A stretch of DNA of 64,000 nucleotides from positions 12,399 to 76,398 of the forward strand of contig JAQTVM010000001.1 in NCBI GenBank assembly GCA_028706745.1, written 5' to 3'. How positions within the stretch are numbered: the first letter of the stretch is position 1; every line of letters starts with the position of its first letter. Of the stretch, positions 1,664-52,118 are shown one piece after another. Position numbers and translations under genes: made by a program. Below the pieces are notes generated by a model that saw only the letters and a program-made list of their open reading frames with translations, did not search any database and had not been told where the DNA came from. The stretch comes from Candidatus Nanoarchaeia archaeon. Lineage in GTDB: Archaea > Nanobdellota > Nanobdellia > SCGC-AAA011-G17 > GW2011-AR17.

Positions 1664-4303
1664 ATGGACTTCAAGGCAATACAGGACAAGTGGCAGAAGC
1701 GCTGGGAAGAGAAGAAGATATTCAAAGTGAAAGAGAATTCAAAGAAAAAGAAGTTCTATGTCCTTGAGATGTTCCCTTACCCCTCTGCATCATACCTGCA
1801 CATGGGGCACGTAAGGAACTACACAATGGGCGACGTGGTCGCAAGATTCAAGCGAATGCAGGGCTTTAATGTTCTTTATCCCATGGGATATGACTCATTC
1901 GGACTGCCTGCAGAGAATGCAGCGAAAAAAGCAGGAATTCATCCAAAAGAATACACTGAAAACGCAATAACAAACATAATGGCTTACCAGAAAGCTTTGG
2001 GGAACAGTTATGACTGGGACAGGGTATTGGCAACGCACCGCCCTGAATACTACAAATGGAACCAGTATTTCTTCATCAAATTGTTTGAAAAAGGACTTGC
2101 ATACAGGGGGGAAGCGCCTGTCAATTTCTGCGATTCCTGCAACACAGTATTGGCGAATGAGGAAGTCGAGGCAGGCAAATGCTGGCGCTGCGGCACAGAA
2201 GTCACGACAAAATCCCTTAGCCAGTGGTTTTTGAAGACAACAGCATATACAGAGGAATTGCTGAATGACATTGACAAGCTTGACTGGTCTGACAAGATAA
2301 AGGAAATACAGAGGAACTGGATTGGCAAAAGCCACGGAACAATAATTAATTTCACAATTGACGGCAAAGTATGGCCTGTATTCACCACACGCTCCGACAC
2401 TGTTTTTGGCGTCACATTCATGGTAATATCAGCGCAGCATCCAAAGCTTAAAGAGCTTGTGAAAGGAACAAAAGAAGAAACAAGTGTTATGGCTTTCTCA
2501 GAAAAATGCAAAAAAGCAAGGTCAAGGGAAGAAATTGAAGAATTGGGGAAAGAAGGCGCCTTTACAGGCAAATATGCAGTCAATCCAATAACAAATGATA
2601 AAATACCTGTCTGGGCAGGAAACTTTGTTCTTGCAGAATACGGAAGCGGAATGGTAATGGCTGTCCCGACTCACGACCAAAGGGACTTTGAGTTTGCAAA
2701 GAAATACAGCCTGCCTTTGAAAGTTGTAATCCAGCCTAAGAATAAACAATTAAAAGAAAGTGAAATGTCAGAAGCATACACAGAAGAAGGTATTCTTGTC
2801 AATTCAGGGCAATTCAATAATATTGAAAATAAAACCGCAATTGAAAAAATAACAGATTACATTGAAAGCAAAAATCTTGGAAAAAGAACAGTCAATTACA
2901 AGATAAGGGACTGGCTAATCTCAAGGCAGAGATACTGGGGCACGCCAATACCAATGATTTACTGCGAAAAGTGCGGCATAGTGCCTGTGCCTGAGAAAGA
3001 GCTTCCACTCTTGCTGCCTGAAGATGTCTCGTTTACTGAAAAAGGCAATCCAATGCTTACAAGCAAAAAGTTCCAGAATGTTAAATGCCCGAAATGCGGG
3101 GCAAAGGCAAGAAGGGAAACAGACACAATGGGAGGATTTATGGACAGCAGCTGGTACTTCATGAGATACTGCTCTCCAAAGGAAAAGAAAACAGCTTTCA
3201 GCAAGGAATCAGTAGATTACTGGATGCCTGTTGACCAATATATCGGAGGCATAGAGCACGCTGTCGGGCATTTGATATACTCAAGATTTTTCACAAAGGC
3301 ATTAAGGGATATGGGGCTTTTGAAATGCGATGAGCCGTTCAATGCATTATTCAACCAAGGGATTGTTTACAGAGACGGCAAGAAAATGTCAAAGAGCGCA
3401 GGCAATGCAGTAATGCAGGATGAAATTGTAAAAGATTACGGCATTGACACTGCAAGATTGTTCCTGATGTTTGTAGCATCCCCTGAAAAGGAAATGGAGT
3501 GGAGCTCTGCAGGCATTGAAGGCAGTTTCAGGATTGTGCACAAGCTGATTTCATTGTTTGAGGATAAACCAAAAGGCAATGGGACAAAGGACAAGTTGAT
3601 AATCAGCAAAATGCACCGCACAATAAAGGAAGTGACTGCAGGTATTGAGGGGTTCAGGTTTAATAACTCGATTATTGCATTGATGGAATATGTGAATTAT
3701 TTGCATAGGGAGAAAGAAAATATATCTGAGAAAGTATGGAACAAGGCTTTGGAAACAGTGTGCGTATTGGCTTCTCCTTTCATGCCGCACATATGCGAGG
3801 AATGCTGGGAAAAGCTTGGCAACAAGCCGTTTGTATCTTTGGAAAAATGGCCTTCCTTTGACGAGAAGAAGATTGATTTGAAAGCTGAAGCAATTGAGCA
3901 GATTGCAGATAATGTTGCATCTGACATAAGAAAAGTCCTTGAGCTTGCAAAGATAGAGAAGCCTGCGAAAATCACTTTGTTTACAGCAAACAAATGGAAG
4001 TATGAGCTTGTAGAACAAGTGAAGAAATTAAACACAAGGAATGCAGGCGAGATAATAAAGTCAGTGATGCAAACATCCTTGAAACAGCACGGTCAGGATG
4101 TTATGAAAATTGTTCCTAAATTGGCAGAGAAGCTGCCTGAATTCGTGTTTGAGAAGAAAGAAGAGGAAAAAGCACTGAAAGATTCTGCTGCAGCGCTTGA
4201 AAAAGAGTTCAATTGCAAGATAGAAATTGTAGATGCAGAGAAAAGCACTCAGCAAAAGGCAAAACAGGCAATGCCGGCGAAGCCGGCGATACTGGCTGAG
4301 TAA
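1664..4303 (+). CDS. leuS: leucyl-tRNA synthetase (archaeal type)
   Basis: 879 aa; HMGH (class I HIGH) and KMSKS motifs; CP1 editing-domain features; overall LeuRS architecture. Confidence 0.9.
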
Positions 4304-16750: not shown

Positions 16751-18748
16751 ATGATAAGAAAAAATGAATCACAGAAAGACATACTTTTGTTTAATTATTT
16801 GAAAGATAAACGTTCTTTTCAAGAAAAATGGAATACTAAAAAAACAACAAATAAGTTTATTCAACCAGTTCTTGATACTTCAAGTAAGAAAAAGAATGGG
16901 CAAAGAGGAGAACCTGATTTTGTATATGTAAACGAAAAAAGGAAAATATTAATATTAATAGAAAATAAAGATGATATTAATCAACATAAATCTAAAAATG
17001 AAGATAATCCTATAACTTATTCTGTAGACGGTATAAAACATTATTTAAGTTGTTTTAAGAAGGATTATCTAGAAAATTTTAATATTACAATTAAAAAATA
17101 TTTAAATGATTGGAAAATTGTTGGGATTGCTGTATCTGGAAATATTGAGGATGAATATAACCATTTAATCTCTACTTATACTCTCCAAGAAGATGAAGTA
17201 AAAGATATAGAAACAGAAGAAATACTTAATGAAGAGGATTACCTCTCTTTATTTGAGAATATCAATTTAGAAAAAATAACAAGAGATATATCCTTATCAT
17301 CAAATAAGATTAATAATCTTTTACGTTCTTTAGATTCACAAAAGAGACCCATTCTCCTTAGTGCTTTAATGATATGTTTATTTGAACCCAAAAATATTCA
17401 AAATGATTTCAAAAATAACTATTCTAATTGGACAGCAAACACAATTATAACGAATATTCCACTAATAATAAAAACGATTTTAGGAAATGAGGGGATACCC
17501 TCGGAAAAGATTGAAGTATTAAATAATGAACTGACATTTATTAAAACAGATTTAGAACTTAAAAATACAGATATATTGAAGGATATACTCAATGAGCTCG
17601 AGAATAATGTTATCCCACAATTTAATAAAAGCCATAATTATGATATTATTGGGAAGTTTTATGAAGATTTTTTGAGATATGCAGGAGTAACAAATGTAAA
17701 AAAAGGGATTATTTTAACACCTGCCCACATTACTAAATTATTTACAGAATTAATTGATGTTAAAACAAATGATGTTATTATTGATACTTGTTGTGGGACA
17801 GGGGCATTTCTTATTTCAGCGATGAATAAAATAATTGAGGAAATAACAGATTCAAGTATTAAAAATAAAAAAGATTTAATTGATAAAGTTAAACATAAAC
17901 AGTTAATTGGTATCGAAAAGAATACGACCATGTATACTCTCGCAATCTCTAATATGCTATTTAGGGGGGATGGTAAATCCAATATTTACCATTTAGATTC
18001 TTTTTCAAAAGAAGCAGATAAGATTTTATTAAATCTTAAAAAGAGGGGAATTATTCCAACAATCGGCTTTATCAATCCGCCTTATGGCGGTAGAGATAAT
18101 AAAGAAAATCCTACTAAAAAAGAAATTCAATTTTTAGAAAGATTATTGGATAATGTTAGCCGATACGGTATAATCATTGCACCATTGTCTACTTATTTTA
18201 AAGAAGAGATTATTAGAAGTAGAATATTATCCAAGCACACTTTGAAATATGTGATAAATATGCCAAAAGAATTATTTCAACCAAATGCATCTACACATAC
18301 AGCTATTGCAGTATTTAAAACAAATTTACCCCATAATAATAAAGAAGTTATATTTTATAATCTTCAAGATGACGGATTAGTTTTATCAAAAAATAGGGGC
18401 AGAACAGATGCATTAAATAAGTGGGCAAAAATAAAAAAGGAATTATTAACAAAATTGAATAATCCTAAAAAATATGCTGATGGAATAAATCTCGTTATAA
18501 CAAAAATCAGTAATGGGGATGAATGGATATTACAAGCTCATGCAAAAACAGATTATACTAAGATTAATGAAAGAGCATTTATTAATAGTATAAAGCAATA
18601 TATTATCTTTTCAACGAAGAGAAAACTAGGTCTATTAGACAGAGATATTGATGAAATAACCTTATTGGAGATACTTAATGAAAATAAGATAAATGCCAAT
18701 GCTTTACTAAGAGATGTTAAAATTAAAGAAAAAAATGAAAAGATATAA
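16751..18748 (+). CDS. fused restriction-modification enzyme (N-terminal PD-(D/E)xK nuclease plus gamma-class N6-adenine DNA methyltransferase), BcgI-A-like / Type IIB-IIG
   Basis: N-terminal EPDFVYV...ILILIENK (PD...ExK); MTase motif I VIIDTCCGTGAFL and motif IV FINPPYG (NPPY). Confidence 0.75.
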   Translation: MIRKNESQKDILLFNYLKDKRSFQEKWNTKKTTNKFIQPVLDTSSKKKNGQRGEPDFVYVNEKRKILILIENKDDINQHKSKNEDNPITYSVDGIKHYLSCFKKDYLENFNITIKKYLNDWKIVGIAVSGNIEDEYNHLISTYTLQEDEVKDIETEEILNEEDYLSLFENINLEKITRDISLSSNKINNLLRSLDSQKRPILLSALMICLFEPKNIQNDFKNNYSNWTANTIITNIPLIIKTILGNEGIPSEKIEVLNNELTFIKTDLELKNTDILKDILNELENNVIPQFNKSHNYDIIGKFYEDFLRYAGVTNVKKGIILTPAHITKLFTELIDVKTNDVIIDTCCGTGAFLISAMNKIIEEITDSSIKNKKDLIDKVKHKQLIGIEKNTTMYTLAISNMLFRGDGKSNIYHLDSFSKEADKILLNLKKRGIIPTIGFINPPYGGRDNKENPTKKEIQFLERLLDNVSRYGIIIAPLSTYFKEEIIRSRILSKHTLKYVINMPKELFQPNASTHTAIAVFKTNLPHNNKEVIFYNLQDDGLVLSKNRGRTDALNKWAKIKKELLTKLNNPKKYADGINLVITKISNGDEWILQAHAKTDYTKINERAFINSIKQYIIFSTKRKLGLLDRDIDEITLLEILNENKINANALLRDVKIKEKNEKI

Positions 18749-19745
18749 ACTAAATCTAAAAAATTGGAAATATTTTAATTTTAATGATATATTTTCATTT
18801 GAGAGGGGAAAAAGGCTTGTTGAATTAGACCAAATAGGGGGAGATATACCTTATATTGCATCTTCCAAAAAAAATAATGGTATAACAAATACAATTAATC
18901 CTCCTGAATTTATGAAATTATATCGGAATGTTTTAACTCTAAATAATAGCGGGAGTGTAGGATATTGTTTTTATCAAGAATCAGATATAGTATGTTCAGA
19001 CCATGTAACTGTAATATGGATTAAAGATGAAAATGTTAAACTAAATCCATATACTGCTTTATATCTAAAACCTATAATAGAATCAATGCAATATAAATTT
19101 AATTTTGCTAGAGAAATAAGTGATGCTAGGTTAAATAAAGAAAAGATATTACTTCCAACTGACAAAAATGGTAATCCTGACTGGTATTTTATGGAAAATT
19201 ACATAAAGCATATTTCTAAGAGAATAAAATATGATAAGGTAATAAATTTAAGAATAGCGAAGAAATTAGATACCCAGAAATGGAAATGGTTCGATATAGG
19301 AAGTTTATTTGAAATTAAAAAAGGAGAACGATTAATTGAAGAAGAACGAATTAGGGGTGAAATCCCTTTGATTACTGCCTCATCTGAAAATAATGGCGTT
19401 GTTGATTTAATATCCTACCCACATTTTAATAAAGAAAAAAAATGTTTTGAAAATAAGATAACAATTGATATGTTCTTCAATGTATTCTACCATAATTATA
19501 AATATTTTAGTGATGATAATGTTCATACTTTAATACCACTTTTTGAAAAAGTAAATACTTATATTTCATTATTTTTAGTAGCAGTTCTTAAAGAATTACA
19601 ATTTAAATATGCTTATGGTCGACAATTAAGAATAAAAAGATTAGAATTAGAAAAAATTAAGCTTCCCATAGATAAAAGAGGTAAACCTAATTGGGTATAT
19701 ATGGAGGATTATATTAAATCCTTGCCTTATAGCTCAAATCTTTAG
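18735..19745 (+). CDS. specificity (S) subunit with two target-recognition domains (HsdS/BcgI-B-like)
   Basis: Two internal repeats: WKYFNFNDIFSFERGKRL...PYIASSKKNNG and WKWFDIGSLFEIKKGERL...PLITASSENNG. ATG at 18735 overlaps the stop of the upstream gene by 14 nt. Confidence 0.75.
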   Translation: MKRYKLNLKNWKYFNFNDIFSFERGKRLVELDQIGGDIPYIASSKKNNGITNTINPPEFMKLYRNVLTLNNSGSVGYCFYQESDIVCSDHVTVIWIKDENVKLNPYTALYLKPIIESMQYKFNFAREISDARLNKEKILLPTDKNGNPDWYFMENYIKHISKRIKYDKVINLRIAKKLDTQKWKWFDIGSLFEIKKGERLIEEERIRGEIPLITASSENNGVVDLISYPHFNKEKKCFENKITIDMFFNVFYHNYKYFSDDNVHTLIPLFEKVNTYISLFLVAVLKELQFKYAYGRQLRIKRLELEKIKLPIDKRGKPNWVYMEDYIKSLPYSSNL

Positions 19746-44993: not shown

Positions 44994-45323
44994 TTACTGT
45001 CTTAAGCCGGCCAGCTTTGAAACAAGCTCATTGAAAACAACCTGCTTTTTTTCTTTTGGCAAAGAAAACAATATTTTCTGAACCATTGCCTCTGATATTG
45101 TAAAGATGTAATTAAGCTTGATTATGCTGTCTTTTACAGCGCCTTCTTTCCTTGAAAGCGCAATCCCTTCCATTGAAGTGTTGGATGTTATCCCTGCAAC
45201 AGCCACATTGCCGTGCTCCTCAAATAATACAAGAGCAGGCCGCTTTTTAACTTCAAAAGTGTCCGCAAATTGGACAGAGGCAAGCACCACATCTCCCGCC
45301 TTAAGCATTCTCCCACACCTCAT
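44994..45323 (-). CDS. MazF/PemK-family toxin
   Basis: GDVVLASVQF...KKRPALVL...VAGITSN pattern of the CcdB/MazF fold. Confidence 0.55.
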   Translation of the reverse strand: MRCGRMLKAGDVVLASVQFADTFEVKKRPALVLFEEHGNVAVAGITSNTSMEGIALSRKEGAVKDSIIKLNYIFTISEAMVQKILFSLPKEKKQVVFNELVSKLAGLRQ

Positions 45324-45522
45324 CTTCCTTGTTGTCCCAAAGCTCTTTCATCTTTTGCTGTTGTATCTTGTGCAGGAATTCATCGTATTGGTTTCTTTTC
45401 TTTACGCTATGGAATACCTTTATCATATGCTCAATCAGCTCGGCATAAGTCTGCCTTGGATATTCCTTCAGCTCCTGCATTGCCTTAACAAGCGCCTTGT
45501 CTATCTGTATTGTCGTGTTCAT
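45301..45522 (-). CDS. ribbon-helix-helix antitoxin (partner of MazF-like toxin)
   Basis: Internal Met start MNTTIQIDKALVKAMQEL; 23-nt overlap with the toxin gene. Confidence 0.45.
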   Translation of the reverse strand: MNTTIQIDKALVKAMQELKEYPRQTYAELIEHMIKVFHSVKKRNQYDEFLHKIQQQKMKELWDNKEDEVWENA

Positions 45523-45600
45523 TATATATTCACTATAGTTGGCATATAATCTATTATATATAAGCCTTGCGGATGTTTTGGTTTTGACTATATTTTCCAT

Positions 45601-46434
45601 TCAGGCGCACCCCTCTTTCCTTAAGCCGTCATAAGGGCTTTTAACCGAAATAAAGGCAGAAGGGCACATGTGCACATAAACCATTGTTGTTTCCGCACTG
45701 CTGTGCCCCATCAGGGGCTGGACAGCTGAAACACTGTATCCATTTTCAATCAAATGAGTTGCAAAAGAATGCCTTAATGAATGCGGATGAACCTTCTTCT
45801 TAATGCCTGCCTTTCTTGCAGCATCCCTTACAGTCTCCTGCACGCTCCTCGGATGAAGCGGAAAGCCATTTCTTCCTGCAAACAGCCAATCCTCTCCTGC
45901 ATCACAAACAGCCTTTTTCAGCCTTTCACGCAGGCACTCTGCTATAATAAAAGGCCTGTCCTTGTTTCCCTTTCCGTGCCTTACCCATCCAATGCATCTC
46001 TCAAATTCAAAATCAATAGTTCTTAGGTTAAGAGCCTCGCTTACCCTTAATCCTGCAGAATACAACAACTCAAGAATAAGCCTGTGCTTTTCATTATCAA
46101 CAGCAGAAAAAAGTCGAAGCACCTCATCTTTTGTAAGGAATACAGGCAGCGTTTTCGGCACCTTTGAATACTTAATCCGCCAAGTGACTCTTTTGTGCAA
46201 AACCTCTTCCATCAGGAACTTCAGCGCATTCACGTGCACGTTCAGCGTATTGCCGCACTTATTCTCCGCAACAAGCACGTCGATATAATCCCTAACATCC
46301 TTTGACGTAACGCGCATGAATTCCTTAGGGCAAAAGCGCATGAACTGCCTGACACACTGTATATAAGTAAGGATTGTCTTTCGGCTTAGCCCTCTTCTAA
46401 GCATCTCTTTTTGCATGTTGTAGATAGCGTCCAT
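45601..46434 (-). CDS. tyrosine recombinase, XerC/XerD/XerA-like, without IntI-specific insertion
   Basis: C-terminal HPHSLRHSFATHLIENGYSVSAVQPLMGHSSAETTMVYVHM (R..HxxR...Y). Only ~55 aa lie between the KGNKDR and LRHSF boxes, versus ~100 aa in IntI. Start taken at MDAIYNM (46434). Transcribed away from the cassette array. Confidence 0.8.
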   Translation of the reverse strand: MDAIYNMQKEMLRRGLSRKTILTYIQCVRQFMRFCPKEFMRVTSKDVRDYIDVLVAENKCGNTLNVHVNALKFLMEEVLHKRVTWRIKYSKVPKTLPVFLTKDEVLRLFSAVDNEKHRLILELLYSAGLRVSEALNLRTIDFEFERCIGWVRHGKGNKDRPFIIAECLRERLKKAVCDAGEDWLFAGRNGFPLHPRSVQETVRDAARKAGIKKKVHPHSLRHSFATHLIENGYSVSAVQPLMGHSSAETTMVYVHMCPSAFISVKSPYDGLRKEGCA

Positions 46435-46469
46435 ATAAAGGAGGCAAGAAGCTCGTCCCTTAAAAAATC

Positions 46470-46620
46470 TTCGCACAAAATTCCGCAGGATTTCCGGCAA
46501 CCCTTGGAAAACCCACCAAGCCAGTCGAAAATTATATGCAAAAATAGGCAAAAGACACAAAAATTTACAACATCGCCGAAAGCACTTTTTGAGAACCCTC
46601 GTCAAAGCTGGCTAACTAAA
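46470..46620. repeat. ~140-bp noncoding element, copy 2, in the attI-like region between recombinase and first cassette
   Basis: see copy 1 at 38092..38228. Confidence 0.7.
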
Positions 46621-46705
46621 ACGTGACGACAAAAAATCAAACAATGGCTCTACCAAAAGCCGCCTGAAACCCGCAAAAAGAATGAATTCCTGTGTCTTCT
46701 CGCAT

Positions 46706-46736
46706 ATAGACTGTTAGGCAACATTTGGGTTTGGGC
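46706..46736. repeat. attI-like junction: unique left half (CATATAGACT) plus conserved right half GTTAGGCAACATTT plus left inverted repeat of cassette 1
   Basis: GTTAGGCAACATTTGGG is identical to the start of cassette 4; the left side is unrelated to the attC-like left half. Confidence 0.55.
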
Positions 46737-46748
46737 TAAAAACACTTC

Positions 46749-46979
46749 TTAGAATTTTGCATATAATGGTTCTTTGGGAATTTTTATCATGTAACTATGT
46801 TTACCAACAATTATAATTCCTTCTTCTAAGCCCCATTCAAATAAGTCTTGAGGATTAAACTCAGGAGGAACTCCACCCCTATAAGGTCTAGCCATTAAAC
46901 CTTCTATTCCCTTTCTTAATGCGATAGGCTCAAAAATATGTCCGTCTATTTCTGAAAAAAATTTGTATATATCAAACAT
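46749..46979 (-). CDS. cassette 1 ORF, hypothetical 76 aa
   Basis: Bracketed by the inverted repeats TTTGGGTTTGGGC (46724-46736) and GCCCAAACCCAAA (47038-47050). Confidence 0.35.
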   Translation of the reverse strand: MFDIYKFFSEIDGHIFEPIALRKGIEGLMARPYRGGVPPEFNPQDLFEWGLEEGIIIVGKHSYMIKIPKEPLYAKF

Positions 46980-47037
46980 TTTTTACTCCTATTCATTGTT
47001 AATATTATACCCCTATATAAGTATTATGGTTTTAAAC

Positions 47038-47162
47038 GCCCAAACCCAAACGCTGCGCCCCTGCGGGGGCTTGCCCGACCAGCTCTGGAGCTTGCTGTGA
47101 GGCTCACTTCGCTCGCACTCCAGCTGCGCTCCGAGGGTCGGGTCGCCTAACAGTCGTTAGGC
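47038..47162. repeat. attC-like site 1: cassette IR plus GC-rich module plus palindromic core GCCTAACAGTCGTTAGGC (47145-47162)
   Basis: about 70% GC in a <40% GC genome; conserved blocks AAACGCTGCGCCCCTGCGGGGGCTTGCCCG ... CGAGGGTCGGGTCGCCTAACAGTCGTTAGGCA. Confidence 0.7.
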
Positions 47163-47233
47163 ACAATTTGAGTTGGGACTTCCCCACCGACAAAAGCAAT
47201 ACATTTATATATTTCTAGCAATTTACAAAGGAT

Positions 47234-47566
47234 ATGGTTAGAAAAATATTAAGAAAAACAATAGAAGATTTACCTGTTTGGAAAATAAAATATGGATTAA
47301 CAAGAGGCGATCTAATTCTTATTCATGAATTAGCATTAATCACATTTAAACCTAATGTATTAAATAACTATTTTAAACAAGAGATGGGTGGGGTTCTTGG
47401 TCGTAATCAAGATTGCTCCATTATTTACTTTGCTCGCAATCTCCTTTTAGAAAAGGGTTTGCCACATGCTTTTGTCGGAATGAAATCTGATATGGATGGA
47501 GAAGATTATAAGTTAATACCTGTATCAGATATAGAATCTTACGAAACTCTTAAATTAAAACCTTAA
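47234..47566 (+). CDS. cassette 2 ORF, hypothetical 110 aa
   Basis: Bracketed by TTTGAGTTGGGAC (47167-47179) and GTCCCAACTCAAA (47579-47591). Confidence 0.35.
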   Translation: MVRKILRKTIEDLPVWKIKYGLTRGDLILIHELALITFKPNVLNNYFKQEMGGVLGRNQDCSIIYFARNLLLEKGLPHAFVGMKSDMDGEDYKLIPVSDIESYETLKLKP

Positions 47567-47578
47567 TTGTATATATTC

Positions 47579-47714
47579 GTCCCAACTCAAACTTCTCCGC
47601 TCCTCGCCTGCGGGCTGCGGTGCTCGACCTGCGCAGCTCTGGGCTCGTCAGGAGTGCTCGCTGTCGCTCGCCTCGACTTCGCCCGAGGCGCAGGGTGCCT
47701 AACAGTCGTTAGGC
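47579..47714. repeat. attC-like site 2 (divergent GC-rich module plus core 47697-47714)
   Basis: Same terminal GCCTAACAGTCGTTAGGCAACATT; the GC-rich body is more diverged than at sites 1, 3 and 4. Confidence 0.65.
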
Positions 47715-47766
47715 AACATTTTCCAAAAAGTCCGAAAACACAAAAAGGGAAAGGAAAAAGAATTAT

Positions 47767-48075
47767 CTAAATTCTAGCAGCAACCAAGGGATTATAATAA
47801 TAATCAAACACTAACATAACTGGGGATTTGTTATATATTTTCACTAATTGCCAACCACACTCTTGTTTAGAGGTATGTTTATATTGTTCAAGTACCTTAC
47901 TAAGAGTTCTAATATTTATATCATTTCCAAAAGTTATAGTAGCATGACAAGAAGTTTCATCAGAAGTATAATTATATTCCTTCTCCAATCTCAAAGCTTT
48001 ATTTAATGCTTTACGGATCTTTTGTTCAAGATTTTGATTTGGTGTTGTCTTATCTACTCTTAATTTTATATCCAT
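47767..48075 (-). CDS. cassette 3 ORF, hypothetical 102 aa
   Basis: Bracketed by ATTTTCCAAAAAGTCCG (47718-47734) and CGGACTTTTGGAAAAC (48193-48208). Confidence 0.35.
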   Translation of the reverse strand: MDIKLRVDKTTPNQNLEQKIRKALNKALRLEKEYNYTSDETSCHATITFGNDINIRTLSKVLEQYKHTSKQECGWQLVKIYNKSPVMLVFDYYYNPLVAARI

Positions 48076-48192
48076 TTTTACCCCCTACAATGTTGTTATT
48101 TAAGAGATATGACAAATATATAAGCCTTTCGGTGAGAGGTTATTTATTCCTTTCCCTCATTAACCTATCATTAAAGGGCTTCGCCCCGTTAG

Positions 48193-48313
48193 CGGACTTT
48201 TGGAAAACGCTGCGCCCTGCGGGGCTTGCCCGCTCATCCTCGAACTCGCCATGATGGCTCGCTCCGCTCGCCTCGGCTCGTTCGGGGAGCGGGTCGCCTA
48301 ACAGTCGTTAGGC
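48193..48313. repeat. attC-like site 3 (GC-rich module plus core 48296-48313)
   Basis: see site 1. Confidence 0.7.
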
Positions 48314-48332
48314 AACATTTGGGAACCGAAAC

Positions 48333-48560
48333 TCAGTCCCTTAAAGGCAATTTTCCACATATTTCATCAAAGTGTGTAACCTTGATATCATATAGAGAAT
48401 AAGTAGAATATTTTGTACCAAAGTTATCATTTATTGCATTTATTGCCAATGTGTAGGCTACTACTTTATCTTCATTAGGTTTTCCAAATCCATTTAATTC
48501 ATGTAATACCATATGTTGTAGCGATTTTACGACTTTGTCTAAAGAAGTTTGTTCTGTCAT
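48333..48560 (-). CDS. cassette 4 ORF, hypothetical 75 aa
   Basis: Bracketed by TTTGGGAACCGAAA (48318-48331) and TTTCGGTTCCCAAAC (48608-48622). Confidence 0.35.
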   Translation of the reverse strand: MTEQTSLDKVVKSLQHMVLHELNGFGKPNEDKVVAYTLAINAINDNFGTKYSTYSLYDIKVTHFDEICGKLPLRD

Positions 48561-48607
48561 TATAATACCACCTCAATAGGAAAGAATTATCTTTCAGTTT
48601 TTATAGC

Positions 48608-48754
48608 TTTCGGTTCCCAAACGCTGCGCCCCTGCGGGGGCTTGCCCGCCCAGCTCTGGGGCTTGCCCGCCCAGCTCTGGGGCTTGCCAGGATGGCTCGC
48701 TACCGCTCGCCTCGGCTGCGCCCCGAGGGTCGGGTCGCCTAACAGTCGTTAGGC
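48608..48754. repeat. attC-like site 4 (GC-rich module with internal 21-bp tandem duplication plus core 48737-48754)
   Basis: CTTGCCCGCCCAGCTCTGGGG occurs twice inside the module. Confidence 0.7.
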
Positions 48755-48810
48755 AAAATTACAGGCGGCTCATAAGACTAATAACAAGAAAAGAACAAAC
48801 GGCGGGCGGC

Positions 48811-49281
48811 TTATTGGCTGTTTTTCCATTTTTCCCACAAATGTGCAGCGTCTCTTACATTCAGGCTTTCAAATAGATAATTATACATATTTATTGCGGT
48901 TTGCCTGGCAGGGCGCTCTTCGTAAATCAGCCCAAAGCCATGTTCCTGTTCTGCTATGTCATATACGTCAAGAGTCTGGTTGCATCCTGTATCTATAAAC
49001 CTTTCATAAAAGAATCCGCCGGGCTGTGGCTTTTTGCTAATAAGGTTTTCACAGCCCCCATAAACAACTACTGTAAATGTAGGGCTATTATAGCTTTCGC
49101 GGTGCTCAAAGGTATATTCGCCACATTCTACCCTAAAGCCCTCTTCCATAAAGGCAACATTTGCTTCATTGCATATATTGCCTATTGTATCTATTGTCGT
49201 TTCTCTATTATTTACACCTGTTGTTGCGCATCCTGCTCCAAGTGCAAGTGCTGCTAATCCACCAAATATTGCTTTTTTCAT
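48811..49281 (-). CDS. putative secreted lipoprotein (cassette 5)
   Basis: Signal peptide with LGAGC lipobox-like Cys; paralogous to the next gene; locally elevated GC. Confidence 0.4.
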   Translation of the reverse strand: MKKAIFGGLAALALGAGCATTGVNNRETTIDTIGNICNEANVAFMEEGFRVECGEYTFEHRESYNSPTFTVVVYGGCENLISKKPQPGGFFYERFIDTGCNQTLDVYDIAEQEHGFGLIYEERPARQTAINMYNYLFESLNVRDAAHLWEKWKNSQ

Positions 49282-49335
49282 TTTGATTTACCTCCCTCAA
49301 TATATCTTATACAGCAATAATCTACTGCGGGCGGC

Positions 49336-49878
49336 TTATAATTTTTCTTTTGCCTGATGCCATTCCGCAATAAGTCGCTCAACATCAAATGTACTTGTGA
49401 TTGTCTGCATATATGAATCATATGCACTATTGCGGAATGCCTGCGCTTGCTCTTCCGCCCCGGGTTCCTCTAAATCAAAGGAGCACCGCAGCCCGCAGGT
49501 GAAGAGCGGAGAAAGAGGACCAGCAGGTCCATGCTCAAATGTCCTGTCGCAACCTTCGTCTGAAAAATATTGATGATTTATCTGTGCATCTGACTGAAAC
49601 ACGTCCAATGTTATTCTTACGCATCCTGTACTCTCCGCATATTCCTGCCTTCTCCATACTGTTTCTGATTCCAAATTGCCGTTATTTACAACTCTTACCG
49701 CAAGTTCTAATTGTTCTTCATTCCAATAAATATCGCCAGAAATAACTTCTGCCCCATTTTGCGTCAGGACATTACTACTTTGACCGTACAAAGGCAGATC
49801 CCTTGCGCAATCTAATCCGGCTGCTGCTAAAGTCGCCAATCCGGCAACCGCGACTGATGATATTATTCTTGCTTTCAT
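49336..49878 (-). CDS. putative secreted lipoprotein paralog (cassette 5)
   Basis: Signal peptide AAAGLDC; similar C-terminal region (..AEWHQAKEK vs ..HLWEKWKN); flanking sequence duplicated (ACAGCAATAATC..). Confidence 0.4.
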   Translation of the reverse strand: MKARIISSVAVAGLATLAAAGLDCARDLPLYGQSSNVLTQNGAEVISGDIYWNEEQLELAVRVVNNGNLESETVWRRQEYAESTGCVRITLDVFQSDAQINHQYFSDEGCDRTFEHGPAGPLSPLFTCGLRCSFDLEEPGAEEQAQAFRNSAYDSYMQTITSTFDVERLIAEWHQAKEKL

Positions 49879-50079
49879 TTTGATTTACCCCCTAAACATA
49901 CTTTCTACAGCAATAATCCACTCCTTCCTTATAAGCCTTACGGAGAACGCCGCCCGCCAACGACGAATATGCCGCCTGTAACTCACCAGATGTCGCTCGC
50001 TGCGGCTCGCTACATCGGTGCCGCGCAGCAGCAGGCTCGCCGTGAAGCTATATTCAACTGTCCGATATATTCGGACAAT

Positions 50080-50595
50080 TCAGCTAAAAATAATATCTTT
50101 CGTCGCATCAATTAATTCTTTACAAATATTTTTTAATTTACTTATCTTCGCCTCATTCTCAACAGAAATCTGCACGCCGTATGTATAGTCCTCCCTCATG
50201 CCAATAATGCTGTCCATATCTTCATATTCCAATAATTCAATAAACTTATCATCCAGGCTGATCTTTTTCTCTTCTTTCAAATATCTCATTAAAGCAATTG
50301 TGCATGTCTGGTTTCCGGATTCAAACCCGAATTTTGCCGCAATAGCCAAAAAGCAATGATAAATGCAATAAAACCCGGCTGACATTGACCAGTCTGAAAA
50401 TCCGTCTCTTTTAAAAACAGTTATCCCATCCAGGTCATGCTCTGCCTTTGCAAGATGCTTTTTTGCTTCCTCAATATCCGGCTTGCCTTTCAATAATCCC
50501 CTGTGCTTTAGCCTTTTCCCTAACTTTTTGCATTCTTCAATCTCTTTTTTTGCCTTGTTCAGGCACCATTCAATTTGGTTAAAAGCGTGCGGCAT
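50080..50595 (-). CDS. HEPN-like domain protein (partner of downstream MNT), cassette 5
   Basis: N-terminal helix pattern AKKHLAKAEHDL typical of HEPN; 17-nt overlap with the MNT gene; HEPN Rx4-6H motif not clearly identified. Confidence 0.35.
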   Translation of the reverse strand: MPHAFNQIEWCLNKAKKEIEECKKLGKRLKHRGLLKGKPDIEEAKKHLAKAEHDLDGITVFKRDGFSDWSMSAGFYCIYHCFLAIAAKFGFESGNQTCTIALMRYLKEEKKISLDDKFIELLEYEDMDSIIGMREDYTYGVQISVENEAKISKLKNICKELIDATKDIIFS

Positions 50596-51169
50596 CTTTC
50601 ATTATCTCCACATATTTATCCTGCCCATATAATACAATAGCATTTTTGACTATATCAATAATGGCTTTGTTTCTCTTTTTAAGGTTTTCCAGCAAATCTT
50701 GCTGTGTCACCATAATAGCATGAAGCTTTTTAGGCAGCATCTCTTCTTTTTTGTTAATGAATTTATTTATTTCTTTAATATCATTTTTATTCATCACAAC
50801 CATAATATCAATATCGCTTGCCTGAACATAGTTCTTAATGGCAGAGCCGTAAATCATTACAATCCTGCCTTCCTTAAAAACTTCCTTAAATTCCTCTTTC
50901 CATCTTTTGAAGCTATTGGCTTCATCAGCAAGCAAGAAAGCTATAAGCTGGCTGACATAAGCCTCCTCAAAATTCAGCCTGTAATTTATTGATTTGCCTA
51001 TTTGCCTGCTTATTACTAAATTTTCCTTAAACAGCCTTTTGAACAGCTTTTGGGCGCCAACATGGCTTATATCCAGTATCTTGCTTATGGAGTTGGCATT
51101 ATAAAATGCAGTGAACTCCTTGAATAAAACAAGCAAGCATTCCCTTTCAGTTAACGTTAAAGACACCAT
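50579..51169 (-). CDS. wHTH plus minimal nucleotidyltransferase protein (cassette 5)
   Basis: IYGSAIKNYVQASDIDIMVV NTase motif; N-terminal wHTH; same architecture as 37447..38073. Confidence 0.6.
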   Translation of the reverse strand: MVSLTLTERECLLVLFKEFTAFYNANSISKILDISHVGAQKLFKRLFKENLVISRQIGKSINYRLNFEEAYVSQLIAFLLADEANSFKRWKEEFKEVFKEGRIVMIYGSAIKNYVQASDIDIMVVMNKNDIKEINKFINKKEEMLPKKLHAIMVTQQDLLENLKKRNKAIIDIVKNAIVLYGQDKYVEIMKDAARF

Positions 51170-51312
51170 ATTAACTCCAAGTTACTATATAGAAACTATG
51201 AATTACTATATAAACCTTTCTATCCCTAATGACGAAAAACCCCACCTCCTTTATTTTTCGGACAAATAGAGCCTGCGGCGGAGAGATATATCGCCCACCA
51301 AGCCTTATGTCT

Positions 51313-51330
51313 TCCTAACAGTCGTTAGGC
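51313..51330. repeat. core site 5 (TCCTAAC-AGTC-GTTAGGC) without GC-rich module
   Basis: seen directly; followed by GAAATTACAGGCGGCTCACAAGACTAATAACAA, near-identical to the start of cassette 5 (48755-48790). Confidence 0.7.
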
Positions 51331-51395
51331 AGAAATTACAGGCGGCTCACAAGACTAATAACAACTATTAAATATCTGCAAAGCATAATCCTAAT

Positions 51396-51776
51396 ATGAA
51401 AAGAAAGGTTGGGCTCTTTGTTTACTGGACTCCAAGAATATTATCCATAATCTTCTTATTGTTCCTTGCATTAATGTCCCTTGACATCTTTGACGGCAAT
51501 TACGGATTTTGGGGCACAATACTGGGCTTGTTCATGCATAACATACCTGCATTTATCCTGCTTATAATCCTGTTAATCTCCTGGAATCACGAGATTGTGG
51601 GAGGAATCGGCTTTATCCTTGCAGGGATTGCATATGCCTCACTTATCATATCTCATCTGATTAAAACCGGATTTGAATGGTATTATCTGGCGTGGATATT
51701 GCAAATCTCAGGGGTTGCATTTCTTATAGGAATCCTTTTTCTTATTGGCTGGTTCAAGAAAAATAAGAAAAAATAA
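51396..51776 (+). CDS. membrane protein (4 TM), function unknown
   Basis: 126 aa, hydrophobic helices; after the last core site. Confidence 0.35.
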   Translation: MKRKVGLFVYWTPRILSIIFLLFLALMSLDIFDGNYGFWGTILGLFMHNIPAFILLIILLISWNHEIVGGIGFILAGIAYASLIISHLIKTGFEWYYLAWILQISGVAFLIGILFLIGWFKKNKKK

Positions 51777-51778
51777 AT

Positions 51779-52087
51779 CTACTTCTTCGCAACCTTCTCT
51801 TCCTTCATTATCTTCTTTGCGATAAGGAATACAACCAGAGCGATTATCACGAAGTTCAGCAATTCACCTAAGAAAGACCCCCAGCCGATAACTATCGGAC
51901 CTAAAGCAAATGTAGCCGCCTTCCACGCTCCGCCCGGAATAAACGGCGTTATCAAAGGCATAACAACATTATCAACCAGGGATTTTATCAAGGCAGTGGC
52001 TGCAAAGCCCATTACAAAGGCAATAGCCATGCCTACCACTTTGTATTCCCTTAAAAATCCCATAAACTCTTTCATCAGTTGCTTCAT
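51779..52087 (-). CDS. mscL: large-conductance mechanosensitive channel MscL
   Basis: KEF..F...VVGMAIAFVMGFA...SLV.NVVMPLI ... and second TM; aligns along its length to MscL. Confidence 0.75.
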   Translation of the reverse strand: MKQLMKEFMGFLREYKVVGMAIAFVMGFAATALIKSLVDNVVMPLITPFIPGGAWKAATFALGPIVIGWGSFLGELLNFVIIALVVFLIAKKIMKEEKVAKK

Positions 52088-52118
52088 TTTTCCCTCCAGT
52101 ATATATTAAATAAAAAAA

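What the first reader, a model, noticed from the sequence alone, without database searches (positions are those of the whole stretch)
45601..52100. Integron-like cassette array driven by a Xer-type (not IntI-type) tyrosine recombinase in an archaeal genome
A XerC/D-family recombinase gene (45601-46434, minus strand) is transcribed away from a rightward array of at least five cassettes, boundaries at 46713, 47156, 47708, 48307, 48748 and 51324. Each cassette carries one or a few small, mostly unannotatable ORFs in mixed orientation. Each is delimited by the same conserved site ending GCCTAAC-AGTC-G|TTAGGC. This site matches the integron inverse-core/core consensus (RYYYAAC / GTTRRRY), with the canonical integron crossover between G and TT. 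The recombinase-proximal site is a hybrid (unique left half, conserved right half), as expected for attI x attC products. The recombinase lacks the ~40-aa IntI-specific insertion between the KGxKxR and LRHSFAT boxes that defines integron integrases, including those reported from archaeal metagenomes. So this is either a new Xer-based integron analogue, or an IMEX-like array of elements captured at a dif-like site next to their recombinase.
Basis: partly seen in the sequence, partly recalled or inferred. Interest (0 to 1): 0.9.

Follow-up and report, generated by a model that had tools for sequence, protein, structure and literature searches.

The report
Xer-type integron-like gene cassette array
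A DPANN archaeon carries, next to a Xer-like recombinase gene, an array of small swappable gene cassettes that behaves like a bacterial integron but uses a recombinase lacking the integron-specific domain and a differently built cassette site, so it may bear on how integrons arose.

Summary

**What is there**
- The 18-bp palindrome GCCTAAC-AGTC-GTTAGGC bounds four short cassettes and one 2.6-kb composite cassette.
- These lie upstream of a 277-aa tyrosine recombinase gene.
- The recombinase-proximal site is a conserved dif-type half-site, TCGCATAT-N6-TTA.

**Evidence from related contigs**
- Contigs encoding the identical recombinase share this half-site. They diverge straight after GTT into six different first cassettes, and the arrays are nested or reshuffled.
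- Each cassette's two ends are complementary to each other, not to their neighbours. Together they rebuild a covarying multi-helix structure that is slightly more stable on the bottom strand.
- The centre of the proximal site differs from that of the cassette sites. This points to exchange at one edge only, as in integrons and CTX phage.

**The recombinase**
- It forms its own clade, about equally distant from archaeal XerA and bacterial IntI.
- Its fold matches VchIntIA best, but it lacks the I2 insertion (19–24 residues against 63–66 in IntI).

**Comparison and open points**
- Published archaeal attC sites are canonical; these are not.
- Pacearchaeal orthologues have no array.
- It is not known whether the enzyme also resolves chromosome dimers, or whether the cassette substrate is single-stranded.
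- I found no prior description.

The parts
45601..46434 (-). Tyrosine recombinase gene (277 aa). It belongs to a distinct Woesearchaeal clade related to XerA and IntI, and lacks the IntI I2 insertion.
   Evidence: Pfam PF00589 E 9e-42 plus PF13495. NCBIfam XerA_Arch 214.8 bits (cut-off 220); integron integrase 197 bits (cut-off 265), in two pieces. PDB alignments, insertion length, tree, AF2 model and Foldseek.
46698..46724 (+). Primary (attI-like, dif-type) site: TCTCGCATAT | AGACTG | TTAGGCAACAT. The left arm and centre are fixed; the right arm belongs to the first cassette.
   Evidence: The left half TCGCATAT(A/G)-N4-GTT is conserved 150-430 nt upstream of the gene in every lineage sampled. 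Contigs with the identical recombinase diverge right after GTT. L110 has the same 17-mer followed by a different cassette.
46714..47156 (+). Cassette 1 (443 bp). ORF 46749-46979 (-), 76 aa, no family. Structured end element 47038-47156.
   Evidence: Own-end pairing 46718-46736 with 47038-47056 (I10). Reconstituted junction fold: bottom strand -46.8 kcal/mol, z -7.2.
47157..47708 (+). Cassette 2 (552 bp). ORF 47234-47566 (+), 110 aa, an ORFan. Structured end element about 47580-47708.
   Evidence: The protein matches only itself among 5.8 billion proteins.
47709..48307 (+). Cassette 3 (599 bp). ORF 47767-48075 (-), 102 aa, no family. Structured end element about 48188-48307.
   Evidence: (I14).
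48308..48748 (+). Cassette 4 (441 bp). ORF 48333-48560 (-), 75 aa, no family. Structured end element 48608-48748, with an internal 21-bp tandem duplication.
   Evidence: (I6, D3, D5).
48749..51324 (+). Composite cassette 5 (2576 bp). It holds two paralogous lipoprotein-like genes (48811-49281, 49336-49878, both -), a decayed module (49935-50055) and a HEPN (50080-50595) plus nucleotidyltransferase (50579-51169) pair. There is no GC module before its end site.
   Evidence: (D11, D12, D15, I1).
47145..47162 (+). Cassette junction site 2: the left arm and centre come from cassette 1, the right arm from cassette 2.
47697..47714 (+). Cassette junction site 3.
48296..48313 (+). Cassette junction site 4.
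48737..48754 (+). Cassette junction site 5.
51313..51364 (+). Last detectable site (TCCTAACAGTCGTTAGGC) plus a 32-nt flank that repeats the start of cassette 5. This is the distal end of the array.
   Evidence: (D11). No further site downstream.

Best explanation
This is a chromosomal gene-cassette capture platform that works like an integron but is built from different parts.

SHOWN
(1) A tyrosine recombinase of a distinct Woesearchaeal clade sits next to a conserved dif-type primary site. The recombinase is related to XerA and IntI and has no I2 insertion.
(2) Cassettes of 230-1000 bp, mostly one gene each, are stacked in direct orientation from that site outwards.
(3) In natural populations with the identical recombinase, the cassettes differ, are nested and are reshuffled. 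The breakpoint always lies right after the fixed half-site.
(4) The crossover lies within G-T-T-A at the right edge of the 5-6 nt centre. The centre always stays with the left partner.
(5) Each cassette's own two ends are complementary. They rebuild a 9-bp hairpin next to a long cassette-specific stem that encloses a GC-rich imperfect hairpin, and all three helices show compensatory changes.

INFERRED
- Cassettes exist as excised circles, or as looped single strands.
- The recombinase exchanges one strand only, the bottom strand at TAA|C, between the primary site and the cassette site. The junction is then resolved by replication, as in integron attI x attC and CTX-phage/dif integration.
- The conserved folding means the cassette partner is probably recognised as folded single-stranded DNA.
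- Cassette genes are expressed from their own TATA-type promoters rather than from a common promoter.

NOT SETTLED
Whether the same enzyme is also the lineage's chromosome-dimer resolvase, in which case the primary site would be dif.
For: Site statistics.

Same system next to orthologues at 53-84% identity: L001, L002, L083-L092, L093-L100, L103, L105, L110.

Population variation:
- L094 equals L095 plus one 578-bp cassette.
- L093 has 5.6 kb of different proximal cassettes and then the same distal array.
- Eight contigs share ...TCGCATATAAACGGTT and then show six different continuations. Several of these are internal cassettes of L093: L096 first = L093 fifth at 99.2%, L100 first = L093 ninth, L097/L099 first = L093 twelfth.

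Crossover mapping:
- In the window the primary-site centre is GACT and the cassette centre is AGTC.
- In L001 the right-arm variant GTTA[G/T]GC travels with the downstream cassette, while the centre variant (CGTC or AGTC) travels with the left arm.
- In the P0024 lineage the primary centre is 6 nt and the cassette centres are 5 nt.

Covariation:
- Own-end arm pairing averages 8.4 of 10, against 6.6 for non-cognate pairs and 6.6 for array-adjacent sites, with at least 8 different arm sequences.
- Formal count: 99.3% of cells paired, 5 of 9 pairs compensatory, score 0.507 against 0.127 for shuffles (0 of 500), and slid registers 27-62% paired.
- Outer stem: cognate median 11 nt, non-cognate 7 nt, 95th percentile 9.
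- RNAalifold recovers three helices, and 29 of 34 pairs show compensatory changes.

Folding energy:
- Mean -42.8 kcal/mol for the bottom strand, -40.3 for the top strand, -21 for shuffled sequence; the bottom strand is more stable in 26 of 28 cassettes.
- z scores run from -4.9 to -7.2 for the reconstituted junctions against dinucleotide shuffles.

Recombinase.

Negative controls: bacterial relatives at about 40% identity and the Pacearchaeal orthologue family have no array and no such site.
Against: - No excised circle or junction read was observed, so strandedness and single-strand exchange rest on sequence logic alone.
- The 9-bp hairpin with a 3-4 nt loop provides only one duplex arm. How a recombinase dimer would sit on the folded form is unexplained.
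- I2, the element that lets IntI read folded attC and block second-strand exchange, is absent.
- The bottom-strand energy advantage is small, about 2.5 kcal/mol.
- The L094/L095 one-cassette difference could also arise by homologous recombination between the 125-bp identical modules.
- The tree is a quick neighbour-joining tree on fragments, with an unstable sister group.
- The link between recombinase and array is by conserved adjacency, not by experiment.
Confidence: 0.75

Rival explanations
1. Ordinary housekeeping XerA/dif module parasitised by miniature IMEX-type elements. On this reading the recombinase's real job is chromosome-dimer resolution at the proximal site (dif). The cassettes are selfish double-stranded circles that carry a dif mimic and pile up in tandem, as TLC and CTX elements do at V. 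cholerae dif.
For: - The proximal site has dif anatomy (11-6-11).
- Its left arm is conserved across recombinases down to 53% identity, like dif and unlike attI sites.
- The recombinase aligns end to end with XerA and scores 214.8 against a 220 cut-off on the XerA equivalog model.
- Each DPANN order seems to have one lineage-specific Xer-type orthologue.
- A xer gene next to its dif is known for xerS/difSL and is stated for some archaea (PMC5357621).
- The cassettes encode no recombinase.
Against: - The Pacearchaeal orthologues have neither an adjacent site nor an array. In Thermococcales, dif is not next to xerA (PMC2958812).
- The cassettes are 230-1000 bp with one gene and no replication or transfer function, unlike known IMEXs.
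- Covariation of arms and outer stem has no role in a purely double-stranded dif mimic.
- Centres of unequal length or sequence argue against two-strand exchange.
- One P0024-lineage array lies about 6 kb from an Orc1/Cdc6-like gene, which is not where a terminus site is expected. This is weak evidence.
- This rival overlaps with the best explanation rather than excluding it.
Confidence: 0.3
2. A repeat family (MITE- or REP-like GC-rich elements with a terminal palindrome) scattered through a hypervariable island. Variation would arise by homologous recombination between repeats, and the recombinase would be a bystander.
For: The modules are 70-96% alike within an array. The single-cassette difference between L094 and L095 is bounded by 125 bp of identity. 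Contigs often break in the modules.
Against: - At the proximal junction there is no homology to the left of GTT, yet six different cassettes are joined at exactly that base.
- The right arm, and the left arm plus centre, segregate as independent units.
- The covarying stems join a cassette's own start and end across its gene, so the mobile unit includes the gene.
- The half-site, recombinase and array are associated in every lineage sampled and absent from the controls.
Confidence: 0.05
3. A bona fide integron (IntI plus attC) of the kind already reported from archaeal MAGs, merely divergent.
For: - The core boxes match RYYYAAC/GTTRRRY.
- The best fold match is VchIntIA.
- The N-terminal domain is PF13495, and the C-terminal V-x-S-P-x-D tail aligns with the IntI tail.
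- Cassette content (TA pairs, ORFans, secreted proteins) is typical of integrons.
Against: - The I2 insertion is absent in all 27 family members examined.
- The protein scores below the TIGR02249 cut-off and falls outside the IntI clade (40/40 bootstraps).
- In the published archaeal attCs the R'' and R' boxes are 44-85 nt apart; here they are 3-4 nt apart with the structured part outside them. None of these motifs occurs in that paper's supplement.
Confidence: 0.03

Closest known systems
Integrons (IntI / attI / attC), including sedentary chromosomal integrons and the archaeal integrons of Ghaly et al. 2022 (PMC9668308)
   Same: - The recombinase gene lies next to a primary insertion site.
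- Short, mostly single-gene cassettes form a direct array with similar repeats within an array.
- The core boxes fit RYYYAAC / G|TTRRRY.
- A cassette's first bases are complementary to the inverse core at its own end.
- The cassette site is a structured imperfect palindrome with conserved structure and variable sequence.
- The crossover lies at one edge of the centre.
- Cassette content is rich in TA pairs, defence genes, ORFans and secreted proteins.
- Arrays vary within populations, most of all at the recombinase-proximal end.
   Different: - The recombinase has no I2 / additional domain and lies outside the IntI clade.
- The R''/R' boxes are 3-4 nt apart and form a small hairpin, rather than closing the whole attC.
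- The GC-rich hairpin lies outside them, and a further long cassette-specific stem encloses everything.
- The primary site is dif-like and conserved across the family.
- Cassette genes mostly point towards the recombinase, with the structured element on their 5' side, and seem to have their own promoters.
IMEX elements at dif (CTX, VGJ and TLC phages; GGI), exploiting Xer recombinases
   Same: - A Xer-type enzyme without I2 acts at a dif-type target.
- The elements carry no recombinase of their own.
- Tandem accumulation leaves a fixed half of the target at one end.
- For CTX, a folded single strand is used with one-strand exchange resolved by replication (PMC7790495).
   Different: - The elements here are 0.25-1 kb single-gene cassettes, not phages or islands.
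- There are up to 18 in a row.
- The folded form offers a one-arm hairpin plus stems rather than a full dif mimic.
- The target is beside the recombinase gene.
- The system is archaeal.
Archaeal XerA/dif, and single-recombinase Xer modules (XerS/difSL, XerH/difH)
   Same: A single recombinase of about 275 aa collinear with XerA; a site with 11-6-11 anatomy; gene-site adjacency as in xerS/difSL; XerS also prefers bottom-strand exchange (PMC5357621).
   Different: The score is just below the XerA equivalog cut-off. The site is repeated many times with cassettes between the copies. A role in dimer resolution is untested. The orthologues in the sister order Pacearchaeales have no adjacent site.
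pdif modules on Acinetobacter plasmids
   Same: Small gene modules bounded by Xer-type sites.
   Different: In pdif modules the bounding sites alternate in orientation, lie on plasmids and use XerC/XerD. Here all sites are in one orientation, in a chromosome, next to the recombinase gene.

Membership tests
Integron | Tyrosine recombinase catalytic fold | tested here: met
   PF00589 E 9e-42. The R, H-x-x-R and Y motifs (LRHSFATH, YVHM) are conserved in the family alignment. Foldseek matches to tyrosine recombinases.
Integron | IntI-specific additional domain (I2 helix, about 40 aa insertion in the catalytic domain) | tested here: not met
   Query 177-197 aligns to VchIntIA 182-246. The segment is 19-24 aa in the family against 63-66 aa in 18 IntIs. 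The model shows only a short hairpin there.
Integron | Scores above the curated integron-integrase model cut-off and groups inside the IntI clade | tested here: not met
   TIGR02249 197 bits against 265; PRK15417 145 bits against 435. The family and IntI are separate clades, 40/40 bootstraps each.
Integron | attC: R'' and R' boxes at the two ends of a 55-140 nt imperfect palindrome, with L boxes and extrahelical bases | tested here: not met
   The boxes are separated by 3-4 nt, and the structured GC module lies 5' of both. Published archaeal attCs for comparison. The IntegronFinder model could not be run.
Integron | Complementarity between a cassette's first bases and the inverse core at its own end | tested here: met
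Integron | Primary site next to the integrase gene, where new cassettes enter; crossover at G|TT | tested here: met
   Fixed half-site followed by six alternative cassettes. The crossover is narrowed to G-T-T-A. In two lineages the base before TT is A rather than G.
Integron | Cassettes promoterless and co-oriented away from the integrase, read from a common promoter Pc | tested here: not met
   Cassette ORFs are mostly on the recombinase strand: window 7 of 8, L093 14 of 17, L105 11 of 11. TATA-like boxes 30-40 nt upstream of the window cassette ATGs were read directly; promoter activity is inferred.
XerA/dif | Recombinase reaches the XerA equivalog model cut-off | tested here: not met
   NF040815 214.8 bits against 220, full length in one stretch. 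This is a marginal miss, and NCBI names some family members with this model.
XerA/dif | Site of two roughly 11-bp imperfect inverted arms around a 6-bp centre | tested here: met
   TCTCGCATAT|AGACTG|TTAGGCAACAT, with equivalents in all lineages. Definition from PMC2958812.
XerA/dif | Site unique in the chromosome and located at the replication terminus | tested here: inconclusive
   Related sites are repeated 6-19 times per locus. GC skew in the window follows gene orientation and shows no switch. Whole genomes were not available.
XerA/dif | Resolves chromosome dimers | not testable with these tools
   Needs genetics or biochemistry.
IMEX | Element without its own recombinase, integrated at the Xer target, carrying a dif-like site | tested here: met
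   No recombinase is found in the cassettes. The cassette site has arms that match the right arm of the primary site.
IMEX | Element is a phage, plasmid or island with replication or transfer functions | tested here: not met
   Cassettes are 230-1000 bp and encode one small protein, a TA pair or a defence gene.
pdif modules | Bounding sites in alternating orientation | tested here: not met
   All sites lie on one strand relative to the recombinase.

The most novel reading that the evidence does not exclude
This is an extant I2-less relative of integron integrases that already captures single-gene cassettes through folded, self-complementary sites at a dif-type primary site. It would be a living example of the 'Xer-like ancestor hijacked by single-stranded IMEXs' stage that has been proposed, but never observed, for the origin of integrons. 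Alternatively it is an independent archaeal invention of the same solution. Either way, structure-specific cassette recombination would not require the I2 helix.
Probability: 0.3. Interest if true: 0.95.

Novelty: new variant of a known kind. Interest (0 to 1): 0.85.

Why it matters
Integrons are the textbook gene-capture system. Their integrase is thought to have arisen from a Xer-like enzyme by gaining the I2 helix, and the people who study that transition state that no natural intermediates are known (PMC7790495).

Here a widespread group of uncultivated archaea has an I2-less enzyme, equally close to XerA and IntI. It sits beside a dif-type site and an array of cassettes whose ends show integron-style complementarity and a conserved fold.

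That gives a concrete, cloneable system for three questions:
- Can a Xer-type enzyme recombine folded single strands?
- What does I2 actually add?
- Did cassette platforms evolve once or twice?

It also identifies a large, so far uncatalogued reservoir of mobile ORFan, toxin-antitoxin and defence genes in DPANN archaea. Integron-finding software would be expected to miss these loci, because it requires the IntI-specific domain and a canonical attC. Assemblies also tend to break inside them.

Tried and rejected
- My first pattern search used a 5-nt spacer and found nothing. It was corrected.
- tRNA scan and Rfam: nothing in the window, so the site is not a tRNA-type att site or a known RNA.
I used those loci only as an outgroup and as negative controls.
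- The viral scan with the 16-mer gave one chance hit in a 61% GC phage contig, with no module and no recombinase.
- The metagenome scan with the 17-mer of the primary site gave one true relative (L110) and five chance hits.
- GC skew: uninformative.
- Site 1 can be read as an inverted full copy (15 of 18 matches on the minus strand, centre GACT = reverse complement of AGTC). I rejected this as coincidence because other lineages show no such relation between primary and cassette centres.
- I considered the 50-nt identity after sites 5 and 6 as attL/attR of one integrated element. I rejected this because L110 has a similar cassette start inside a continuing array.
- The search for homologues of cassette-2's protein found only itself.

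Full report
**1. Observation**

The 18-bp palindrome GCCTAAC-AGTC-GTTAGGC occurs perfectly at 47145, 47697, 48296 and 48737. It occurs with one mismatch at 51313, and as a right half only at 46713-46719. That is six matches against none expected in shuffles, and there are none elsewhere in the 64 kb. Sites 2-5 are each preceded by a GC-rich module of 110-150 bp in otherwise 41% GC DNA.

The recombinase ORF 45601-46434 (-) is 277 aa. Between the sites lie single small ORFs of 76, 110, 102 and 75 aa with no Pfam family. They are followed by a 2.6-kb composite segment with two paralogous lipoprotein-like genes and a HEPN/nucleotidyltransferase pair.

An independent assembly reproduces 47131-48645 exactly.

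**2. The same system in relatives, and population variation**

The recombinase belongs to a large family in Woesearchaeota/Nanoarchaeia MAGs, at 53-84% identity. Every member I examined on a sufficiently long contig has a run of small ORFs on the 5' side of the gene. These are separated by a lineage-specific version of the same site, each preceded by a GC-rich module:
- L001 and L110: GCCTAAC/CATAAC-(A/C)GTC-GTTA(G/T)GC
- L093-L100: AACTAAC-ACG-GTTAGTT and variants
- L083-L092: GTATAAC-AAGG-ATTATGC
- L105: AACTAAC-ACTG-ATTAGTT
- L103: AACTAAC-GGG-GTTAGTT

. L093 holds 18 cassettes in 10 kb.

Contigs from different samples that encode the 100% identical recombinase share the downstream core genes but differ in cassettes.
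- L094 equals L095 plus one 578-bp cassette.
- L093 shares only the first 210 nt upstream of the gene with L094. It then has 5.6 kb of other cassettes and then the same distal array.
- Eight contigs share ...CTTCGCATATAAACGGTT and then continue in six different ways.
- Several of these first cassettes are internal cassettes of L093. L096's first is L093's fifth at 99.2% identity, L100's first is L093's ninth, and the first of L097/L099 is L093's twelfth.

This is the pattern expected from insertion, deletion and reshuffling at a fixed primary site.

**3. The primary site**

A half-site TCGCATAT(A/G)-N4-GTT lies 150-430 nt upstream of the recombinase start in all lineages, down to 53% protein identity. 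The surrounding intergenic DNA is not conserved. L103 has the close variant TCGTATATA and L101 has GCGCATAGA.

Read with its right arm, the site has the anatomy of a dif site: TCTCGCATAT | AGACTG | TTAGGCAACAT, that is 11-6-11. dif sites are defined in PMC2958812. The likeness to E. coli dif (GGTGCGCATAA-TGTATA-TTATGTTAAAT) is from my memory and is a lead only. L110, whose recombinase is 71% identical, has the very same 17-mer followed by a different first cassette.

**4. Where the crossover is**

- In the window, the primary site and the cassette sites differ at every base up to the one before GTTAGGC, with centre GACT against AGTC.
- In L001 the fifth base of GTTA[G/T]GC always goes with the downstream cassette. 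The left-arm variant and the centre variant (CGTC or AGTC) go with the upstream module.
- The exchange point therefore lies within G-T-T-A, at the right edge of the centre. This is compatible with the integron G|TT.
- The centres of the two partners are not homologous in the window lineage and have different lengths (6 and 5 nt) in the P0024 lineage. A classical two-strand exchange across a shared centre is therefore unlikely.
- The simplest reading is exchange of one strand only, the bottom strand at TAA|C, with resolution by replication. This is established for integron attI x attC and for CTX phage at dif (PMC4792948, PMC7790495). It is an inference.

**5. The cassette end is a structured element that exists only when a cassette's own ends meet**

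In the array the palindromes are often imperfect, because the left arm belongs to one cassette and the right arm to the next. Pairing a cassette's own start with its own end gives 9 of 9 Watson-Crick pairs in most of 32 cassettes, using at least eight different arm sequences. The means are 8.4 of 10 for cognate pairs, 6.6 for non-cognate pairs and 6.6 for array neighbours.

On an alignment of reconstituted junctions this helix is 99.3% paired. Five of nine pairs show compensatory double changes. The covariation score is 0.507 against 0.127 for shuffles (0 of 500), and register-shifted controls are 27-62% paired.

Beyond it, 10-17 nt starting 10 or 18 nt into a cassette are perfectly complementary to a stretch ending 106-133 nt before the cassette's end. 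The sequence is cassette-specific and the geometry is constant. The cognate median is 11, the non-cognate median is 7 and the 95th percentile is 9.

RNAalifold recovers three elements independently: the outer stem, the 9-bp hairpin, and a long imperfect hairpin in the GC module that starts directly after the hairpin. Of 34 pairs, 29 show compensatory changes.

Folding energies:

| Substrate | Energy (kcal/mol) | Source |
|---|---|---|
| Reconstituted junctions, bottom strand, mean | -42.8 | |
| Reconstituted junctions, top strand, mean | -40.3 | |
| Shuffled sequence, mean | -21 | |
| Window cassette 1, bottom strand | -46.8 (z -7.2) | |
| Same module followed by the neighbouring cassette's start | -37.5 | |

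The bottom strand is the more stable in 26 of 28 cassettes, and when there are mismatches they are mostly A·C on the top strand, which is G·T on the bottom strand.

Arms of a double-stranded site bound by a homodimer have no reason to co-vary, so I infer selection on an intramolecular fold. That fold could form in an excised circle. It could also form in single-stranded array DNA, where the same helices would loop out the gene and bring the cassette's two crossover points together.

How a recombinase dimer would use a one-arm hairpin is not explained by anything I found.

**6. The recombinase**

- Domains: PF13495 plus PF00589.
- Curated models: XerA equivalog 214.8 bits against a cut-off of 220, in one full-length stretch. 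Integron-integrase model 197 bits against 265, in two pieces.
- Alignments: it aligns end to end with the XerA structures 4A8E and 5HXY, and with VchIntIA in two blocks that skip about 44 IntI residues.
- Insertion: the segment is 19-24 aa in the family, 25 in XerA, 20-33 in other Xer-type proteins and 63-66 in 18 bacterial IntIs.
- Tail: the C-terminal V-K-S-P-Y-D motif is nearly invariant in the family and aligns with the IntI tail.
- Tree: in a quick neighbour-joining tree both the family and IntI are monophyletic (40/40 each). The family lies between an archaeal XerA grade and a clade of IntI plus short bacterial relatives, with an unstable sister group. Mean distances are 1.39 to IntI and 1.35 to XerA.
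- Fold: the AF2 model (pLDDT 83) matches VchIntIA best (E 9e-18, TM 0.77), then XerA (3e-16 and 7e-14). It has no helix at the I2 position.

The protein fails the defining tests for IntI and narrowly misses the XerA equivalog cut-off.

**7. Controls and the housekeeping question**

Bacterial relatives at about 40% identity have no arrays. The nearest archaeal relatives form a separate, well-conserved Pacearchaeal family, none labelled Woesearchaeota. This suggests one Xer-type orthologue per DPANN order. Their upstream regions are constant between samples, hold ordinary genes and lack the half-site.

The Woesearchaeal enzyme may therefore be that order's XerA with its dif alongside. Gene-site adjacency is known for xerS/difSL and is stated for some archaea (PMC5357621). 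The arrays, however, are a clade-specific addition.

The window holds no second recombinase, and whole genomes were not available. I put about even odds on the enzyme also being the dimer resolvase. This does not change what the array is.

**8. Comparison with what is known**

The archaeal integrons of Ghaly et al. have IntIs with the additional domain. Their attCs are canonical, with R'' and R' boxes 44-85 nt apart. None of the motifs found here occurs in their supplementary sequences.

Other differences from integrons:
- The boxes here have the same sequences but are 3-4 nt apart, with the structured part outside them.
- Cassette genes mostly lie on the recombinase strand, so the structured element is on their 5' side.
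- Each window cassette has a TATA-like box 30-40 nt before its ATG (read; function inferred).

Differences from known IMEXs: the elements are single-gene cassettes without replication or transfer genes.

Difference from pdif modules: all sites share one orientation.

Literature searches for integron-like, Xer-linked or dif-linked cassette arrays in archaea found nothing. Smyshlyaev et al. note only that the insertion is 'not fully conserved' in their integron-like subgroup.

**9. Verdict**

This is a real, recurrent and population-variable cassette platform. It works like an integron but is not a member of that family, and it is built on a Xer-type enzyme and a dif-type primary site. It is a new variant of a known kind.

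It matters for the origin of integrons, a question whose students note 'the lack of intermediates'. The single-strand mechanism and the evolutionary position are inferences that need the experiments listed under decisive next steps.

Noticed in passing
window 16751-19745: A low-GC island (28-32% against 41% overall) encodes a type I restriction-modification methylase (N6_Mtase, 665 aa) and a specificity subunit (Methylase_S, 343 aa). It is probably a separately acquired defence island.
   Followed up: partly
window 44994-45600: A PemK/MazF-type toxin (109 aa) and a DUF7557 protein (99 aa) overlap as a likely toxin-antitoxin pair, directly downstream of the recombinase and between it and IleRS. 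A DUF7557 + ParE pair is a cassette in L105.
   Followed up: partly
window 49481-49513 (with 47593-47625): A 33-nt stretch that is 94% complementary to the 5' part of module 2 lies inside the 180-aa lipoprotein-like ORF (49336-49878), within a GC island at 49424-49530. A module fragment seems to have been absorbed into a coding region.
   Followed up: no
window 48749-50055: Two lipoprotein-like genes with lipobox signal peptides repeat with a period of about 596 bp, and their 5' regions are 82-83% alike. The complement of cassette 5's start (gccgcctgtaa, 49969-49980) is followed by a decayed GC module without a palindrome. Cassette 5 looks like fused cassettes that lost an internal site.
   Followed up: partly
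window 48637-48678: A 21-bp tandem duplication (GGGGCTTGCCCGCCCAGCTCT x2) lies inside the module of cassette 4.
   Followed up: no
window 48756-48787 and 51333-51364; L110 (minus strand) after its site at 3838: The 32 nt after sites 5 and 6 are 97% identical, and L110 has a similar cassette start. This looks like a recurrent family of cassette starts. The window's array ends with such a start but no matching end, merging into DUF7670, MscL and CNNM/CBS genes.
   Followed up: partly
L093-L096 reconstituted junctions (alignment A2, columns 26-35 and about 175-187): In one class of cassettes, conserved unpaired motifs GAGTAATATT and AGAGTATGACGCA face each other between the outer stem and the hairpin. 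They are candidate protein-contact sites.
   Followed up: no
L001 5300-9500: Between the recombinase and the first full cassette site lie IS fragments (Y2_Tnp/IS91-like, DDE_3) and a GmrSD-type gene. Insertion sequences have invaded the proximal part of that array.
   Followed up: no
L101 3950-9560: In a 53%-identical relative, the recombinase-proximal position is occupied by large defence-like genes: a DNA methyltransferase, an 834-aa HATPase_c_3 protein and a 583-aa protein. Module-type sites appear only further out.
   Followed up: no
L003 714-846: The Pacearchaeal locus has two perfect 28-nt direct repeats 105 nt apart (TTTATGCACTAAGATAACCTTAGTTAAA), each with an internal palindrome, about 900 nt upstream of its Xer-type gene. 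This may be that lineage's own recombination site.
   Followed up: no
P0027; ends of L002, L097-L100, L110 and L120: One family member is labelled as a CPR bacterium (Nomurabacteria) in NCBI although the family is archaeal, which is probably a binning error. Many contigs end inside the GC modules, so these arrays break assemblies and are likely under-represented in MAGs.
   Followed up: no
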